Made by a program: the position numbers and the translations under genes
The notes under the pieces: generated by a model
The model's input: only the letters and a program-made list of their open reading frames with translations
Databases searched by the model: none
What the model was told of the DNA's origin: nothing
Shown here: positions 2,902-38,993 of the stretch, piece after piece
How positions within the stretch are numbered: position 1 is the first letter of the stretch
Layout: every line of letters begins with the position of its first letter
Source of the DNA: a virus
Taxonomy: Duplodnaviria; Heunggongvirae; Uroviricota; Caudoviricetes
Strand: one strand, 5' to 3'
DNA length: 44,824 nt
IMG/VR virus record: IMGVR_UViG_2778261573_000004
Location: 1 to 44,824 of that record

Positions 2902-3495
2902 TTATGAATAATTGAAAATGATGTTCAGATGGGATGGGGCAATTTTGTTGATTGAACACTCCAGTTGTTTATTGCCCCACGATGCGAGCGGATCTCCGCA
3001 GTAGGACGCGCCAGCAAGCGAATACTTGATCGTTGTTTGTGGCGCATTTATCCGCCAGGTAAATGGCCACTCGTCACCGTTAAGCGCATCACCGCATACT
3101 GACATGCCACTCATAGCGGGCCGGAACTGTGTGATAGTGATGGTATAACCAAGAGCTGCAGCCACCCGGATGTAATAATCGCGGTTCAGGCCGCCGGTGC
3201 TGATTAACTTTGCCACCACGGCGCGCTGGCGATCGCTGACGCCACCGGATTCACCAATCGCACAATCATCTGGTAACCCCAGAGAGCTTTCCCATTCTGA
3301 CAACATTACCGTCGCTGTAGGGGGAAAAGCACCAGTAATCAGGCTTTGCGCATCGTTGTCAGAACGCTGAAACGCGCTGCCCAGTGCCCGTAATACCGCA
3401 GCCTGTACCGTTCTTTGCGACCGGGGCCACGCCCTGCCCGTCGGTAGCAGCGCACCAAGCGCACCGGCATAATCATTTTTTGAAAAGAGGCTCAT
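2902..3495 (-). CDS. Tail protein, Mu gp48-like (DUF2313-like)
   Basis: 197 aa ORF between baseplate J and the tail fibre, the position of Mu gp48; 4-nt overlap with the upstream gene. Family assignment is from memory of this gene order and is not verified. Confidence 0.55.
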   Translation of the reverse strand: MSLFSKNDYAGALGALLPTGRAWPRSQRTVQAAVLRALGSAFQRSDNDAQSLITGAFPPTATVMLSEWESSLGLPDDCAIGESGGVSDRQRAVVAKLISTGGLNRDYYIRVAAALGYTITITQFRPAMSGMSVCGDALNGDEWPFTWRINAPQTTIKYSLAGASYCGDPLASWGNKQLECSINKIAPSHLNIIFNYS

Positions 3496-28344: not shown

Positions 28345-28816
28345 GTTGCCAGTTTTCAATGAAGATAATGCGGGCAAAAAAAGCCTGCTCGGACGAACAG
28401 GCATGAAAAATAACAATACCGTCAAGGAGGTGGCGCCGGGTGCCTCCCGGTGGAACAGCCCCAGCCGACTAGTTCCGCGCAAACAAACCTGGACAAAAAA
28501 GTTTGACTGGTCGCCCCTCCGCATAGGGGGATTCACCACACTAAAAATTTAACATCTGATGAAACTCGTTTCAATGCTCTACGACGATGTGACAGGGGTA
28601 TTGATGCAATGCAAATAGACCTACTCTCGGAGCAAGGATAACAACTTTTCCGTACTCTCTTCTGTAAGTTCGAAGTGGATCAATTCTTCGCCATTCTTGA
28701 GAATGTAGAGTTCTTTACTCCCTTTATCATCAGTAGTGATATCAAGGGCATAAATATCAGGCTTGCATAGCGTAATGCCGCCTGTCGTAACTAGCGTCTT
28801 ATTAACGAGGTGACTC

Positions 28817-35057: not shown

Positions 35058-35962
35058 CGGATCACCCCATAGGCCCAGTCAGTGTTGTTGAAGTCCAGAT
35101 CTGGCTTGACAGCGCGCTGCTCACCTCCGGCGTTACGCTGCATTGTCAGCTTGTCCCACTGCTTACGCAGGCTTTCGGGACTCAGGATGTTGGTCTGCCA
35201 GAAGTGGTGTTTGCTAGCCCAGTCATACAGCGCGCAGATGTCCTGGTGCGACCGGTTGTCTATCTGGCGCATCAGGCGAACAGTGTTAGACCAGGAGGTC
35301 ATGTCCGGGGCTTTGCAGGTTGGGTTAATCAGCTTCACCCTGGAGGAAATCCACTTAGCTGTCTCGAGGTCTTCAGCAGAGCCCCACTTCGCACCGGATG
35401 GTGTGTAGACCGCAGCTTCAGGATGAGTTGATAAAAATTTCTTCAGACGTGCGTCAGAGGATTCGTCAGAATTCTCGGACGAAGATCTTTTAATACTGTT
35501 CTTGTTCTTGTATTGGGTGTCTACCGTTTTCGGGAAGGTTATTCCTGATTTCGGGAAGGATTTTCCCGTTTTCGGGAATTTTCTTCCCGTTTCCGGTTTG
35601 TCTAAAATCCATGCTGAAAGGTCAGTGTTTACACCGACGATTTTCATCATGCCCTGCTTCTGTGAAAAGATGATTTTGCGTTCTGCGAGAGACTTAAGCG
35701 CGTCCGATACATGCGTATCGCTCAGGCCCGTAAGCTCGGCAATAACCGTATTTGTCACGCGGTCCTGTTTCTTGTTCCAGCCGTAGGTAAGCCAGATCAC
35801 CGCCTCAAAACATTGCCATTCCCGGCCTGACAGTCTCAGGCGAGGCTTAAGCTGTTGGATCTCGTTAGCGACCTTGGTATACCCGTTCGACAGGTCGGCC
35901 ATACGACCTCCCGGTTGTTCGGTTTTATTTGGGAAATTGATTATTTCAGCGGTGTTTGACAT
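35054..35962 (-). CDS. O: Replication initiator protein O
   Basis: Start at MSNTAEIINF (lambda O begins MTNTAKILNF); TYGWNK motif; the gene contains the iteron array. Confidence 0.9.
   Translation of the reverse strand: MSNTAEIINFPNKTEQPGGRMADLSNGYTKVANEIQQLKPRLRLSGREWQCFEAVIWLTYGWNKKQDRVTNTVIAELTGLSDTHVSDALKSLAERKIIFSQKQGMMKIVGVNTDLSAWILDKPETGRKFPKTGKSFPKSGITFPKTVDTQYKNKNSIKRSSSENSDESSDARLKKFLSTHPEAAVYTPSGAKWGSAEDLETAKWISSRVKLINPTCKAPDMTSWSNTVRLMRQIDNRSHQDICALYDWASKHHFWQTNILSPESLRKQWDKLTMQRNAGGEQRAVKPDLDFNNTDWAYGVIR
35524..35602. repeat. ori iterons (four direct repeats of about 21 bp, core TTTCGGGAA) inside the O gene, with adjacent AT-rich segment 35481-35520
   Basis: CCGTTTTCGGGAAGGTTATTCC / TGATTTCGGGAAGGATTTTCC / CGTTTTCGGGAATTTTCTTCC / CGTTTCCGGTTTGTC; encodes the repeated FPK(T/S)G linker of O; same arrangement as ori-lambda. 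Confidence 0.75.
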
Positions 35963-36047
35963 ACTTACTCCCGTTACTTGCCGTAACACAGTGTGATAAG
36001 GGCCTTTGAAGTTACCGCTTCAAGGGCTTTTTCTTTTCTTGTGCCTC

Positions 36048-36593
36048 TCATATAACCCCCAGCATCGATGTAACCATCGTCATCAGCGGTCCTACCTGCT
36101 CCGGCATGAGGCGGAACAGCGACGCTATACCCTCGCTTACCTCTTTGAGCTTCTGATGCTCTGGAGCGTCCAGCAGCACGGCCTGTTTAGCCTCGGCACA
36201 CTCTTTCATCGCAGAGGCGATCAGCGACATCGTGTCGTTCTGCTGCGCCAGACGGTTTCGGTACTCCAGCGGCAGGACCGACATGATTGCCGGGGCCAGC
36301 TGGCGAATGTTGTTGGCGGCGTATTCGGTATCGCCATCAATCCATCGAAACACTTTCTGCATCTGGCGGTGCGAGTCAGTCGGGATATCCAGACCGGTTC
36401 CGCCGGACGCCCGCCACTCTTCCACGATCAGCGCGGCGACAAATTCACGGCTTCGGCAATCAGCTGCCCAGGCGCGAACAGCAGCGCGGATCCCATCGAT
36501 GTTTAACGCCGCGGAATCAGGCTCCCGGCGATTCTGGTAAATCATCGCCGTTGGCGAAAATTTGTTACCTTGTTGATACGCAAGTGAATGCAT
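36048..36593 (-). CDS. Regulatory protein in the CII position (possibly YdaT-like)
   Basis: 181 aa immediately downstream of the Cro-like gene and upstream of O; family assignment is tentative. Confidence 0.35.
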   Translation of the reverse strand: MHSLAYQQGNKFSPTAMIYQNRREPDSAALNIDGIRAAVRAWAADCRSREFVAALIVEEWRASGGTGLDIPTDSHRQMQKVFRWIDGDTEYAANNIRQLAPAIMSVLPLEYRNRLAQQNDTMSLIASAMKECAEAKQAVLLDAPEHQKLKEVSEGIASLFRLMPEQVGPLMTMVTSMLGVI

Positions 36594-36610
36594 TGCTTTC
36601 CCTTTCGTGG

Positions 36611-36844
36611 TTAGGCCGCAGTATCACGCGGCGATGCGAATACCAGGCTTTCTTTTAGGACCGGAGCCTGGCGGTGAAAATTCTTCGTGCCTTTCTCGAT
36701 AGCAGATGCCATTTCTGGAGATGCCCGGCGATTTCCGTAGGCGATCTGGTCCAGGTAACCTGGCGTCGTGTTAGCCAACTTTGCGAGCTGCGCCCATTCG
36801 TCGGTAGTGGCGGCCTTGCGCCAGCGGTGTAGTTCAGTGCTCAT
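36611..36844 (-). CDS. cro: Cro-like HTH transcriptional regulator
   Basis: 77 aa, HTH-like segment (WAQLAKLANTTPGYLDQIAYGNRRAS); divergent from the CI gene across the operator region. Confidence 0.6.
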   Translation of the reverse strand: MSTELHRWRKAATTDEWAQLAKLANTTPGYLDQIAYGNRRASPEMASAIEKGTKNFHRQAPVLKESLVFASPRDTAA

Positions 36845-36876
36845 TGGTGTCTCCGGGTGAGTCGTTTGATTTGGAG

Positions 36877-36942
36877 TTTAGCGTTATGCTAAATACTACG
36901 CAAGCATCATTTAGCAATTTGCACATTTATCATTTTGCTAAA
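36877..36942. promoter_or_regulatory. OR-like operator cluster between cro and cI
   Basis: Perfect palindrome TTTAGCGTTATGCTAAA at 36877-36893 and near-copy TTTATCATTTTGCTAAA at 36926-36942, plus half-site TTTAGCAATTTGCA between them. Confidence 0.55.
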
Positions 36943-36960
36943 AGCAGTAACAATGCAGGT

Positions 36961-37638
36961 ATGGAAAATAAAGAAATCAGAAAAGCCAACCTGGAAGCGC
37001 TGTACGAGAAGCGTCAGCACGAGTCTGGAATGACCAAAGCGCAGTTTGCCGAGCTCATCGAGACAAGTCCGGCTGCGCTTAGCCAGCTACTGGGACCAAA
37101 CCCTCATCGCAATATCGGCGATAAGATGGCTCGCAAAATTGAAACTGCGCTTGATCTGCCTTTTGGCTGGATGGATGTTTTACACGCCAGTGAAGAACCT
37201 TCGAACGTTGCATTTCGAGGACTGAACGAGACAAAAGGAAGTTATCCTGTAATCAGCTGGGTAAGCGCGGGGCAATGGATGGAAGCTGTAGAACCTTATC
37301 ACCGAAGAGCGATAGATCGCTGGTATGACACGACTGTTGACTGCTCAGAAGATTCATTCTGGCTGGACGTTAAAGGGGATTCTATGACCTCCCCGGCTGG
37401 ACTGAGCATACCCGAGGGAGCAGCGATACTTGTTGATCCTGAAGTCGAGCCGCGCAACGGAAAGCTGGTTGTCGCGAAGCTAGAAGGCGATAACGAAGCG
37501 ACCTTTAAGAAGCTTGTAATCGATGCCGGCAGACGCTTCCTAAAGCCCCTTAACCCCGCATATCCAATGCTAGAAATTAATGGAAACTGCAAAATCATCG
37601 GCGTTGTGGTTGATGCCAAAATACTAAACATCCCATAA
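36961..37638 (+). CDS. cI: CI-type prophage repressor (HTH plus S24 LexA-like peptidase domain)
   Basis: Start at MENKEIRKANLEAL; N-terminal HTH; C-terminal VKGDSM (Ser nucleophile) and VVAKLEG (Lys) of S24 autopeptidases. Confidence 0.9.
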   Translation: MENKEIRKANLEALYEKRQHESGMTKAQFAELIETSPAALSQLLGPNPHRNIGDKMARKIETALDLPFGWMDVLHASEEPSNVAFRGLNETKGSYPVISWVSAGQWMEAVEPYHRRAIDRWYDTTVDCSEDSFWLDVKGDSMTSPAGLSIPEGAAILVDPEVEPRNGKLVVAKLEGDNEATFKKLVIDAGRRFLKPLNPAYPMLEINGNCKIIGVVVDAKILNIP

Positions 37639-37654
37639 CCTCACGCAAAACCCC

Positions 37655-37683
37655 TCAAGCCCGCCATCGCGCGGGCTTTTTTA
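37655..37683 (+). terminator. Rho-independent terminator after cI
   Basis: AGCCCGCCATCGCGCGGGCT followed by TTTTTTA. Confidence 0.65.
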
Positions 37684-37754
37684 CGTCCCGAATTCCTTCG
37701 CTGTAAATTTTTAATCGCTTATTAATCAATACGCTAAATAAAACCATTCAACAA

Positions 37755-37796
37755 TTTAGCATTTTGCTATTGCGCATAATTTAGCATCACGCTAAA
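37755..37796. promoter_or_regulatory. OL-like operator cluster downstream of cI
   Basis: Perfect palindrome TTTAGCATCACGCTAAA at 37780-37796 and near-copy TTTAGCATTTTGCTAT at 37755-37770; same consensus as the OR sites. Confidence 0.5.
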
Positions 37797-38214
37797 TTTA
37801 CCCCATCGAAACGAAACATCGACAGCTGAGCGAAGTTAGCCAGCGGCGGACAGCAAGTCGCCTGCTTTTTAACAACATGCAGATTTACAGCGTCAATGAC
37901 CTGTTAAGACCCCTACACGTAAACGTGCTGTATCACTGGGTGCGATCCGGTCGGTGAGAGAGTATCCCCGCGCGAGAGCGAGAACGGCGTGAGAACGGGC
38001 AACACTGGCAGGGAGTTGGCGCTGACCAATACAGGGAATGTTATGGGATGTGGTGAAGGGTTCATGGACGGGAATATGTCGCACGTAAAGCGGCGAGGCC
38101 CGAGGAGCTATTGCCGAAGATAAGTAGGCCGAATCGGGTCGAAATGGGTCTCCCACCTACCACATCGCCAAAGCATTTCTCCCGCATCAGCGGGTAACGA
38201 CAGAGGGTAAGGGG

Positions 38215-38511
38215 ATGATCGACGACATCAAGCGCATCGACTCAATGATAAATGCGCTTCGCAATATGAAACAGGACATCAAGCGTCAGCAGAAACTAAG
38301 TGAAATAAACAGTTTAGACCTGTCGCCGAAGCAAGCTCAAAAGCGCAATGCCGATGCTGACTGGATTGCGATGGAACAGATTAAGCGTCGGCATGAGCTG
38401 CACGCTCTGTCTGTTGAGCTTGGGTTCGCTGAGCGCCGGGAAAGTTATGCTCCATTTGAATTAACTGACGGGTGGCACCGATTCGACCACAAGCCGCGCG
38501 AACCTCAATAG
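38215..38511 (+). CDS. First early-left ORF, basic protein of unknown function (N-like position)
   Basis: 98 aa; RBS GGGTAAGGGG before ATG 38215; lies after a 400-nt untranslated leader from the OL region. Confidence 0.45.
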   Translation: MIDDIKRIDSMINALRNMKQDIKRQQKLSEINSLDLSPKQAQKRNADADWIAMEQIKRRHELHALSVELGFAERRESYAPFELTDGWHRFDHKPREPQ

Positions 38512-38667
38512 CCGCCTAACCAGCGGCTTTTTCATACCTGGAGTCATTTACGAGTGGCTCAAGTTATGACAACCGGCGGCCATCCACCGCCCATTGAAAC
38601 ACTGAATAAATGCGTTGAAGTCTTGTATTAACCGTTCCGTTCGCCGCGATAAGGCCAAGAGGAAATC

Positions 38668-38796
38668 ATGGTAAACCAGCAGCAGATCAGAGAGGCCCAA
38701 CGGCTCGCGTCGTTCGCGGTGCTCCATCGCAATGCTCCGGCGTGGGAAGAAGCAAAACGCCTTTACGCCGTCGCCATCGGGAGGACTCTTCACTGA
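38668..38796 (+). CDS. Small ORF (42 aa), translationally coupled to the next gene
   Basis: RBS AAGAGGAAA before ATG 38668; stop overlaps the next ATG (TGATG). Confidence 0.3.
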   Translation: MVNQQQIREAQRLASFAVLHRNAPAWEEAKRLYAVAIGRTLH

Positions 38797-38993
38797 TGGA
38801 AACTTTATTCGCACTCGTCCTGACCGTGGCAATGACCAACGGTGATTATCAGGATGTCATTCTCGGCGTTTACGACAGCCAGCAGGAATGCAGCCTGGCA
38901 GCTACAGAGCAGAAAGTGTCAGCTGAGTGCTGGCCGGTAGAAAGCATCATCCGCAACGGCGAGTTCCCGGCGAAATCCATCGCGCAGCAGTAA
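38796..38993 (+). CDS. Small protein with hydrophobic N-terminus (65 aa)
   Basis: METLFALVLTVAMTNGDYQ...; start inferred from coupling with the upstream ORF. Confidence 0.35.
   Translation: METLFALVLTVAMTNGDYQDVILGVYDSQQECSLAATEQKVSAECWPVESIIRNGEFPAKSIAQQ

What the first reader, a model, noticed from the sequence alone, without database searches (positions are those of the whole stretch)
37800..38214. 400-nt untranslated, GC-rich leader downstream of the OL-like operators
Seen in sequence: no ORF with a credible start or RBS between the OL sites and the first early-left gene at 38215; the only ORF here (37893-38156, minus strand) is antisense and lacks an RBS. The segment contains a hairpin followed by T5 (about 37843-37872) and a GC-rich stretch unlike the flanks. 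Inference: this is where nut-type or put-type antitermination RNA elements, or an sRNA, would lie; no obvious N homologue was recognised.
Basis: inference. Interest (0 to 1): 0.4.

Follow-up and report, generated by a model that had tools for sequence, protein, structure and literature searches.

The report
Structured antitermination leader RNA after pL
The "empty" 400 bases are the untranslated early-left leader of a phi80-type prophage. They hold a Nus-factor site (boxA) followed by a conserved four-helix RNA that more than 100 related phages, including outbreak Shiga-toxin phages, carry where others have an N protein or a put RNA.

Summary
Window 37798-38540 is 99.7% identical to phage phi80 from the pL -10 box onwards. 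The interval is therefore the phi80 pL leader, whose records annotate nutL, and the gene at 38215 is the one named N.

No protein is encoded in the interval. It is not a credible terminator.

- **Domain 1 (37888-38024).** A four-helix junction directly after boxA. Across 82 distinct homologues, 96% of cells are paired and 17 of 39 pairs show compensatory changes. No Rfam family matches it.
- **Domain 2 (38036-38178).** The long-stem "N-leader" structure that lambda, HK97 and P22-type phages carry just upstream of N.

Comparative surprise: of 99 distinct phage contexts with domain 1, one has an arginine-rich N and about nine have the phi80 "N". Conversely, phi80-"N" homologues often sit behind a true N or behind a put-like RNA. 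BoxA plus domain 1 therefore looks like a third interchangeable early-antitermination cassette. Whether it needs the 98-aa protein is unresolved.

The locus is known; the structure and its distribution appear undescribed.

The parts
37721..37798 (+). OL-type operators and the pL promoter. Candidate -35 TTGCGC at 37770-37775; -10 TAAATT at 37793-37798. Transcription should start near 37805.
   Evidence: Repeats and inverted repeats AATTTAGC-N5-GCTAAATT. The -10 coincides with the annotated phi80 pL -10 by coordinate transfer. The sequence upstream of 37798 is not phi80.
37805..38214 (+). Untranslated pL leader, about 410 nt.
   Evidence: 99.5% identical to the phi80 pL-N leader. No ORF is under coding constraint. 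The + strand folds better than shuffles (z = -1.86); the - strand does not (z = +0.71).
37845..37862 (+).
   Evidence: Found; no more stable than shuffles. A hairpin of different sequence occupies the same place in PA2 and Edno5. This gives an rrn-like hairpin-then-boxA order, which is suggestive only.
   Evidence: Annotated as nutL boxA in phi80. One mismatch to TGCTCTTTAACAA. Differs from the GYTCTTTAANA consensus (PMC5725501) only at position 4. It is the only such site in the window. It is kept in essentially all 82 homologues.
37888..38024 (+). Domain 1: a conserved four-helix-junction RNA. Closing helices are P0 (37888-96 / 38016-24), P1 (37900-06 / 38006-12) and P1b (CCC 37911-13 / GGG 37997-99).
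   Evidence: RNAalifold consensus. 96.3% of cells paired; 17 of 39 pairs changed on both sides against 8.2 +/- 1.6 in shuffles and 2-9 in slid controls. Covariance model R1 scores 212 bits, and this is the only copy in the window. Coordinates.
37916..37927 (+). P2: CACG-UAAA-CGUG, the 'nut core' of the phi80 annotation. A boxB-like hairpin with an A-rich loop.
   Evidence: Annotation. Two of its 4 pairs show compensatory changes (A-U/G-C in 13 sequences, G-C/A-U in 8). The loop varies: UAAA, AAAA, AGAAA, CAAA.
37933..37957 (+). P3: a 9-bp hairpin, the most sequence-conserved part.
   Evidence: C-G to U-A compensation in the PA2 group. Its invariance is partly forced by the search pattern. It is also kept in Edno5, which BLAST found, and in L275, which the model found.
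37967..37989 (+). P4: an outer stem plus an inner CGC-GAGA-GCG hairpin capped by a GNRA tetraloop. This is the variable arm.
   Evidence: In other lineages it is replaced by CCC-GAGA-GGG, CUGU-GACA-ACAG or CUGU-GAUA-ACAG with the pairing kept.
38036..38178 (+). Domain 2: 'N-leader' structure closed by a basal stem of about 17-19 bp (38036-54 / 38159-78).
   Evidence: Fold z = -2.43. Six pairs covary, with up to 14 of 28 sequences changed on both sides. 91% identical to the segment just upstream of HK97 N. It lies directly 5' of arginine-rich N genes of several types. Lambda has the same arms and architecture.
38181..38214 (+). Small hairpin CCCGC-AUCA-GCGGG followed by the Shine-Dalgarno stretch GAGGGUAAGGGG. 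A portable 'gene-start cassette'.
   Evidence: Fold. The same 30-50 nt precede unrelated genes in HK225 (twice), KO-TP1, HK639 and many IMG/VR loci.
38215..38511 (+). 98-aa gene named N in phi80. It has no N-terminal arginine-rich motif and forms an orphan family.
   Evidence: Annotated N in M11919, X13065 and JX871397. No Pfam hit. PHROG 25091, 'unknown function'.
38510..38532 (+). tL1A, an intrinsic terminator directly after the gene. This is the first barrier the leader-modified polymerase must pass.
   Evidence: Annotated in phi80. Found by the scan. Hairpin z = -3.6.

Best explanation
The interval is the untranslated leader of the early-left (pL) transcript of a phi80-type prophage. It is built from exchangeable RNA modules.

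**Proposed mechanism**
1. About 60 nt after the start, boxA is transcribed and recruits the host NusB/NusE(S10) pair. This step is inferred from the sequence match and from established boxA biology.
2. The next 137 nt fold into a four-helix junction, domain 1. The fold is shown here by covariation.
3. Tethered to the polymerase next to boxA, domain 1 completes a termination-resistant elongation complex. That complex reads through tL1A (38510-38532) and later early-left terminators. This step is inferred from position, from the phi80 'nutL' annotation that spans it, and from its interchangeability with put RNA and with N+nut modules.
4. Domain 2 is the lambda/HK97-type N-leader structure. Its long basal stem ends about 35 nt before the start codon. 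It probably governs processing and translation of the first gene, as the RNase III-sensitive stem does for lambda N. This step is inferred by homology and analogy.

**The phage partner**
In phi80 the reported phage partner is the 98-aa 'N'. The comparative data here suggest that the RNA cassette does not generally depend on that protein.
For: **Identity with phi80**
- The window matches the phi80 pL-nutL-N-tL1 region and carries its annotation.

**BoxA**
- BoxA is near-consensus and is the only one in the window.
- It is conserved in all lineages.

**Domain 1**
- The structure is supported by covariation: 0 of 500 shuffles reach the observed values, and slid controls score far lower.
- There is one copy per phage, always directly after boxA.

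**Same slot as other antitermination modules**
- HK639 shares the flanking segments but has an annotated putL-like antiterminator RNA in between.
- Loci with the identical 98-aa gene carry that put-type leader instead of domain 1.
- Of 100 loci fetched for carrying domain 2, most of them with an arginine-rich N, only 6 also have domain 1.

**A terminator to overcome**
- A strong intrinsic terminator follows the first gene.
- In N-less Stx phages the IsrK terminator follows the leader.

**Domain 2**
- Covariation supports the stem, and the segment is shared with lambda, HK97 and P22-type N leaders.
Against:
- The experimental papers behind the phi80 annotation (Tanaka & Matsushiro 1985; Rotman et al. 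2012) are not in the held library and could not be read.
- No second copy (nutR or putR equivalent) exists in the pR operon. This is unlike both the lambda N and the HK022 put systems.
- BoxA carries T instead of C at consensus position 4. Changes at that position (C4A, and C4T together with T6C) inactivated the suhB boxA.
- P3's invariance is partly an artefact of how the homologues were collected.
- BoxA can also mediate repression rather than antitermination, as at suhB (PMC5725501).
Confidence: 0.68

Rival explanations
1. Classical N-dependent nutL, as annotated. Only boxA and the small P2 hairpin ('nut core') matter. The 98-aa phi80 N binds P2 as lambda N binds boxB. The rest of domain 1 is scaffold or irrelevant.
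For: - The feature tables of M11919 and JX871397 name N, nutL boxA and nutL core.
- P2 is a covarying hairpin with an A-rich loop.
- The 98-aa gene occupies the N slot behind the N-leader structure.
Against: - The protein has no arginine-rich motif and no relation to known N families.
- Only about 9 of 99 distinct domain-1 contexts encode it.
- Of 37 loci fetched with its homologues (35 distinct upstream contexts), 22 lack domain 1.
- 11 of the 35 contexts lie behind a true arginine-rich N in the same operon, and several others behind a put-like RNA.
- The whole 137-nt junction is conserved with compensation, not just P2.
- No nutR exists.
Confidence: 0.3
2. The leader regulates only the first gene and not transcription elongation. 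Domains 1 and 2 would set mRNA processing, stability or translation: RNase III cleavage, occlusion of the ribosome-binding site, or boxA/Nus-mediated translational repression as at suhB.
For: - Domain 2 matches the lambda-type N-leader stem.
- BoxA/Nus complexes can repress translation (PMC5725501).
Against: - Domain 1 is followed by many unrelated first genes. In many loci it is joined directly to a different ribosome-binding site without domain 2.
- It replaces put or N+nut modules.
- In the window it lies 190 nt from the start codon.
Confidence: 0.12
3. Domain 1 is a sensor (riboswitch-like or protein-binding) that gates early-left transcription in response to a host signal.
For: - It is a multi-helix junction with invariant joining strands and a GNRA-capped arm, as in many ligand-binding RNAs.
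Against: - No expression platform is evident, meaning no alternative terminator or anti-terminator pairing after it.
- It has a constant partnership with boxA.
- No Rfam riboswitch match was found even at E <= 10.
Confidence: 0.07
4. The hairpin plus T5 (37845-37872) is an intrinsic attenuator that stops pL transcripts early unless modified.
For: - The terminator scan lists it.
Against: - Its stability equals that of shuffles.
- It has an 8-nt loop and only 5 bp, and the U-run starts after a UGC spacer.
- The U-run is boxA and is interrupted in relatives.
Confidence: 0.04
5. A small protein or a stand-alone sRNA gene is hidden in the interval.
For: - An 87-aa antisense ORF exists here and an 88-aa counterpart exists in PA2.
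Against: - There is no codon-position bias in substitutions, and the indels are not multiples of three.
- The ORF is truncated in TL-2011c, and it has no family hit.
- The - strand is not structured.
- There is no internal promoter or terminator.
Confidence: 0.02

Closest known systems
Phage phi80 pL-nutL-N-tL1 region (GenBank M11919, X13065, JX871397)
   Same: The same DNA: 99.5-99.7% identity from the pL -10 box through N and tL1A. The annotated boxA, nut core, N and tL1A all map into the window.
   Different: - The window has a different immunity region upstream of 37798: a different cI and operators, closest to Klebsiella phage KO-TP1.
- The records annotate only a 9-nt boxA and a 12-nt 'core'. 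They do not show the 137-nt junction or the N-leader stem.
Lambda nut sites (boxA + boxB, N protein, Nus factors)
   Same: - A promoter-proximal boxA followed by structured RNA in the pL leader.
- A terminator soon after the first gene.
- The lambda-type long stem before the first gene.
   Different: - The 15-nt boxB hairpin is replaced by a 137-nt four-helix junction.
- No arginine-rich N is present.
- There is a single site with no nutR.
- BoxA is closer to the rrn type than to lambda's CGCTCTTA.
HK022/HK639 put RNAs (protein-independent antiterminator RNAs)
   Same: - They occupy the same slot just after pL, between the same flanking segments as in HK639.
- Most carriers of domain 1 lack any recognisable N.
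   Different: - put is about 70 nt, has two stem-loops, occurs at both pL and pR, and needs no boxA (PMC9378689).
- Domain 1 is 137 nt, has four helices, occurs at pL only and is always behind boxA.
- There is no sequence or model similarity.
rrn operon antitermination leader (boxB hairpin - boxA - boxC with Nus factors, S4 and SuhB)
   Same: - BoxA is near-identical, and exact (TGCTCTTTAACAA) in the Stx-phage copies.
- A hairpin may sit just 5' of boxA.
- No phage protein is needed in principle.
   Different: - It lies in a phage mRNA leader, not an rRNA operon.
- It is followed by a large junction RNA that has no rrn counterpart.
- rrn-type complexes are known to counter Rho-dependent termination (abstracts), whereas tL1A is intrinsic.
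Lambda N-leader RNase III-sensitive stem (established knowledge; not read here)
   Same: - Domain 2 has the same position, a long basal stem enclosing branches.
- Through HK97 it shares the same arm sequences, CUUUGGGGUGUG / CACACCACCAAAG.
   Different: - The interior differs from lambda's.
- Cleavage by RNase III is untested.
- Here it precedes a non-arginine-rich 98-aa gene.

Membership tests
Lambda-type nut site | boxA sequence able to bind NusB/NusE | tested here: met
   GCTTTTTAACA matches GYTCTTTAANA except at position 4 (T for C). 25 of 82 homologues have C at that position (18 GCTCTTTAACAA, 6 in a CTTCTTTAACAA context, 1 GTTCTTTAACAA). Binding itself was not tested.
Lambda-type nut site | boxB: a short hairpin with a GNRA-like pentaloop a few nt after boxA | tested here: not met
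   The nearest candidate, P2, has 4 bp and a UAAA tetraloop. It starts 41 nt after boxA ends and is one arm of a 137-nt junction.
Lambda-type nut site | A cognate N protein with an N-terminal arginine-rich motif encoded in the operon | tested here: not met
   The 98-aa protein has no Pfam hit, falls in PHROG 25091 (unknown function) and has at most 5 R/K in any 15 residues of its first 40. tblastn with 11 N types finds none in the window's family of contexts, except in the Edno5 lineage.
Lambda-type nut site | A second site (nutR) in the pR operon | tested here: not met
   There is no second boxA, P2-like hairpin or model hit in the window. None is annotated in phi80.
Lambda-type nut site | N-dependent read-through of downstream terminators | not testable with these tools
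   This is asserted by the phi80 record names. The primary papers are not held.
HK022-type put RNA | About 70 nt folding into two stem-loops | tested here: not met
   137 nt with four helices around a junction. Definition from PMC9378689.
HK022-type put RNA | Copies downstream of both pL and pR | tested here: not met
   One copy per window or locus.
HK022-type put RNA | Similarity to known put sequences | tested here: not met
   There is no BLAST or model match to the HK639 putL-like region.
HK022-type put RNA | Acts without a phage-encoded protein | tested here: inconclusive
   About 89 of 99 contexts lack both the phi80 'N' and any arginine-rich N. 85 of 99 lack any R/K-rich candidate in 2.5 kb. 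An unrecognised protein cannot be excluded.
rrn-type antitermination signal | Consensus boxA | tested here: met
   One mismatch here; exact in the Stx-phage copies.
rrn-type antitermination signal | Hairpin (boxB) 5' of boxA and boxC 3' of it | tested here: inconclusive
   A hairpin precedes boxA in three lineages with different sequences, but it is no more stable than shuffles in the window. boxC was not examined.
Lambda N-leader RNase III stem | A long basal duplex immediately upstream of the first-gene ribosome-binding site, shared with N leaders | tested here: met
   The stem has 17-19 bp, and 6 pairs across the structure covary. The same segment lies directly 5' of HK97-, P22- and other N genes. 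Lambda's arms and architecture match.
Lambda N-leader RNase III stem | Cleavage by RNase III | not testable with these tools
Any Rfam family | Score at or above the gathering threshold | tested here: not met
   Nothing reaches the gathering threshold in the leader. The best sub-threshold hits are chance-level or lie outside it.

The most novel reading that the evidence does not exclude
BoxA plus the 137-nt four-helix RNA is a third, previously unrecognised class of lambdoid early-antitermination device. It would be an RNA cassette that works with host Nus factors and RNA polymerase alone, with no phage N protein.

It would be interchangeable with the N+nut and put modules. It is carried by more than 100 enterobacterial phages, including the Stx2a phages of the O104:H4 and O103:H25 outbreak strains.

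A corollary is that the 98-aa phi80 'N' is not the RNA's cognate antiterminator but a passenger early gene.
Probability: 0.38. Interest if true: 0.8.

Novelty: new variant of a known kind. Interest (0 to 1): 0.58.

Why it matters
- **A possible third solution to early antitermination.** Early antitermination decides whether a lambdoid prophage can run its lytic programme. Two solutions are textbook: N protein with nut sites, and put RNA. A covarying junction RNA welded to a ribosomal-type boxA, found where those modules otherwise sit and mostly without any N, would be a third.
- **It is directly testable.** Reporter fusions and purified transcription systems would settle it.
- **Medical relevance.** The same element heads the early-left operon of Stx2a phages from major outbreak lineages (TL-2011c, P13374/O104:H4, PA2, ArgO145). 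In these phages control of induction bears on toxin release.
- **Annotation.** It flags that the name 'N' for the phi80 98-aa protein family may be misleading in genome annotation.

Tried and rejected
- **Rfam.** The scan of the window at gathering threshold, and of the leader at E <= 10, found nothing credible in the leader. The Trp-leader hit is the cI terminator, the AgvB hit (18 bits against 56) lies in the operators, and the bxd_1 hit is eukaryotic.
- **Coding hypotheses.** These were rejected.
- **Second (nutR-like) copy.** None was found with a boxA pattern, a P2 pattern or the covariance model with filters off.
- **First pattern scan.** My pattern did not match the window itself because of an alignment gap. 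It still yielded the divergent Edno5-like homologues plus 6 false loci, which were discarded.
- **Literature.** No held paper describes the phi80 nutL or this RNA. Rotman 2012, King 2011 and Tanaka & Matsushiro 1985 are not in the library.
- **Similarity to put.** None was found.
- **Hairpin-T5 as a terminator.** Rejected.

Full report
**What the sequence is**

Window 37798-38540 is 99.7% identical to phage phi80 (JX871397, M11919, X13065), starting exactly at the pL -10 box. Transferring the phi80 annotation by coordinates gives:

| Feature | Window coordinates |
|---|---|
| pL -10 | 37793-37798 |
| 'nutL boxA' | 37863-37871 |
| 'nutL core' | 37916-37927 |
| 'nutL regulatory signal' (278 bp, M11919) | 37826-38103 |
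| gene N (98 aa) | 38215-38511 |
| terminator tL1A | 38510-38532 |

Upstream of 37798 the window is not phi80. The repressor (36958-37638; HTH + S24 peptidase), its terminator and the AATTTAGC/GCTAAATT operators belong to another immunity type. The closest match is Klebsiella phage KO-TP1.

**Check of the observation**

The interval has no gene.
- Only short ORFs occur. The 87-aa antisense ORF has no family match.
- In 82 distinct homologues the variable columns fall evenly over its codon positions (27/28/27). The element length changes in steps that are not multiples of three.

The 'hairpin + T5' exists but is not a credible terminator.
- The hairpin is no more stable than shuffled sequence (z = -0.06).
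- The T-run is the centre of boxA, TGCTTTTTAACAA.
- Relatives keep boxA but break the T-run (TGCTCTTTAACAA).

The 'GC-rich' impression is modest. The leader is 55% GC against 52% for the window, and it contrasts only with the 29% GC operators.

**Anatomy of the leader**

The + strand folds better than shuffles (z = -1.86); the - strand does not (z = +0.71). BLAST shows that the leader is a mosaic of modules shared separately with other phages.

| Segment | Window coordinates | Shared with |
|---|---|---|
| A | 37798-37848 | HK225, KO-TP1, HK639 |
| boxA + domain 1 | 37863 to about 38050 | Stx phages PA2, ArgO145, TL-2011c, the O104:H4-type phages, HK225, KO-TP1, Edwardsiella phage Edno5 |
| Domain 2 | 38044-38173 | HK97, 933W-like phages, phi24B |
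| Hairpin + Shine-Dalgarno cassette | 38164-38214 | Reused before unrelated genes |

**Domain 1 is a real structured RNA**

Pattern scans retrieved 9 bacterial genome loci (Enterobacter, Kluyvera, Escherichia) and more than 119 IMG/VR contigs, plus divergent Edno5-like copies. This gave 82 distinct sequences (alignment A2).

RNAalifold and a curated structure give helices P0, P1 and P1b closing a junction with hairpins P2, P3 and P4. The pair counts were:

| Measure | Observed | Controls |
|---|---|---|
| Cells forming standard pairs | 96.3% | 27-42% when partners are slid |
| Pairs (of 39) with changes on both sides | 17 | 8.2 +/- 1.6 in shuffles (0 of 500 reach it); 2-9 when slid |
| Covariation score | 0.141 | at most 0.036 when slid |

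- P4 is swapped between lineages for different GNRA-capped hairpins with the pairing kept.
- **Caveat:** P3 was fixed by the search pattern. Its conservation is independent only in Edno5, found by BLAST, and in L275, found by the model.
- A covariance model (R1) finds exactly one copy in the window (212 bits; the next hit is 10 bits). It also finds one copy per related locus.
- No Rfam family matches.

**BoxA**

The window has the only match in 44.8 kb to the GYTCTTTAANA consensus of Baniulyte et al. (PMC5725501), allowing Y at position 4. Among the 82 distinct homologues:
- 48 have GCTTTTTAACAA;
- 18 have GCTCTTTAACAA, the exact ribosomal type;
- 7 more have C at position 4 in a slightly different context.

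**Domain 2**

The basal stem (38036-54 / 38159-78) is supported by covariation in 28 sequences. The same segment lies directly upstream of arginine-rich N genes of the HK97, P22-like and other types in about 100 loci. Lambda's own N leader has the same arms and branched architecture.

From established knowledge, that lambda structure is the RNase III-sensitive element that controls N translation. I did not read the primary papers here.

**Who travels with whom**

This is the informative part.

*Contexts that carry domain 1* (99 distinct contexts; median 7.3 kb of downstream sequence):
- 1 encodes an arginine-rich N (the Edno5 lineage).
- About 9 encode the phi80 98-aa protein.
- Only 14 have any ORF with an R/K-rich N-terminus, and most of those look spurious.
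- The first gene after the leader is highly variable.

*Loci that carry a homologue of the 98-aa protein* (37 loci, 35 distinct upstream contexts):
- 15 loci have domain 1.
- 11 contexts have a true arginine-rich N just upstream in the same operon, for example a lambda-type N at 67% identity in L274. They include Erwinia phage 59, whose annotators noted an N-like protein.
- Several have the HK639 leader with its annotated putL-like RNA. These include three loci whose protein is 100% identical to the window's.

*Loci selected for domain 2* (100 loci, mostly with an arginine-rich N): only 6 have domain 1.

The 98-aa protein is an orphan family (no Pfam hit; PHROG 25091, 'unknown function').

In summary, boxA+domain 1, N+nut and put are alternative occupants of one slot. 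The 98-aa gene behaves like a passenger.

**N-less Stx phages**

In PA2 and TL-2011c the order is as follows:
1. A promoter-like site.
2. An exact boxA.
3. Domain 1, and in PA2 also domain 2.
4. An IsrK sRNA gene with its own promoter and a strong terminator.
5. A C4 antisense RNA.
6. An Rha/antirepressor-type gene.

No N-like ORF is present. A terminator therefore sits in the path of pL transcription with no N available.

**Interpretation**

Shown:
- the locus identity;
- the absence of coding;
- boxA;
- the two RNA structures;
- their distribution.

Inferred:
- boxA recruits NusB/E;
- domain 1 completes a termination-resistant complex that passes tL1A;
- domain 2 controls processing and translation of the first gene.

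Whether the 98-aa protein is required is open. The record names say so, while the comparative data argue against an obligate partnership. I estimate about 0.4 that the cassette is N-independent.

Features that fit neither known system are the single copy (no nutR/putR) and the T at boxA position 4.

**Verdict**

The detail is partly wrong: the hairpin-T5 reading, the GC claim, and the failure to recognise the gene named N.

The locus itself has been known since 1985. The four-helix RNA, its covariation and its mutual exclusivity with N and put were not found in Rfam or in the searchable literature. The key older papers could not be read, so I claim novelty only as a new variant of the nut/put kind.

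Noticed in passing
window 28372-28568 (-): Full-length match to Rfam STnc100, a gammaproteobacterial (prophage-associated) sRNA: 84.5 bits against a gathering score of 47.
   Followed up: no
L285, L291, L292, L274, L278, L281-L283, L286/L293 (about 300-1000 nt upstream of the match at 3001): Homologues of the phi80 98-aa 'N' lie downstream of genuine arginine-rich N genes in the same operon. In L261, L263 and L266 an identical copy follows the HK639 put-type leader. The name 'N' for this family (PHROG 25091) may be a misnomer that annotation propagates.
   Followed up: partly
L005 1763-1838 and 1863-1950; L004 1868-1943 and 1968-2055: Stx2a phages TL-2011c and PA2 carry an IsrK sRNA (RF01394) with its own promoter-like site and terminator. 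A C4 antisense RNA (RF01695) follows, between the leader and an Rha/antirepressor-type gene. This is a P1/P7 immI-like arrangement inside the early-left operon.
   Followed up: partly
L005 2786-2869: Match to Rfam sRNA-Xcc1 (79.6 bits) downstream of the Rha gene in TL-2011c.
   Followed up: no
window 38164-38214; L007 1719-1747 and 1953-1976; many L26x-L28x loci just before position 3001: A 30-50 nt cassette (..UUUCUCCCGCAUCAGCGGGUAAC.ACAGAGGGUAAG..AUG) recurs in front of unrelated early genes, twice within HK225. It looks like a portable junction and ribosome-binding sequence at mosaic boundaries.
   Followed up: partly
window 38066-38098 and the interior of domain 2: The interior of the N-leader structure is almost invariant in sequence across phages with different N genes. 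A 33-nt exact pattern hit more than 119 IMG/VR contigs. This is more conservation than a mere RNase III duplex would need, and its specific role is unexplained.
   Followed up: partly
window 35900-37800: The prophage is a hybrid. The cII/O-side DNA is 98.8% HK225-like. The cro-cI-operator region is closest (89%) to Klebsiella phage KO-TP1. From the pL -10 box onwards it is phi80. The phi80 M3 (oop-like) RNA region is probably present near 35900-36000.
   Followed up: no
L270 2420-2598: A degenerate copy of domain 1 in which boxA and the 5' strands of P0/P1 are replaced (112 bits). It appears to be a recombination scar, still upstream of a phi80-'N' homologue.
   Followed up: no
window 38796-38993 (+): A small early-left gene with a DUF1482 domain (E = 2.5e-24). 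It overlaps the stop codon of the preceding 42-aa ORF.
   Followed up: no
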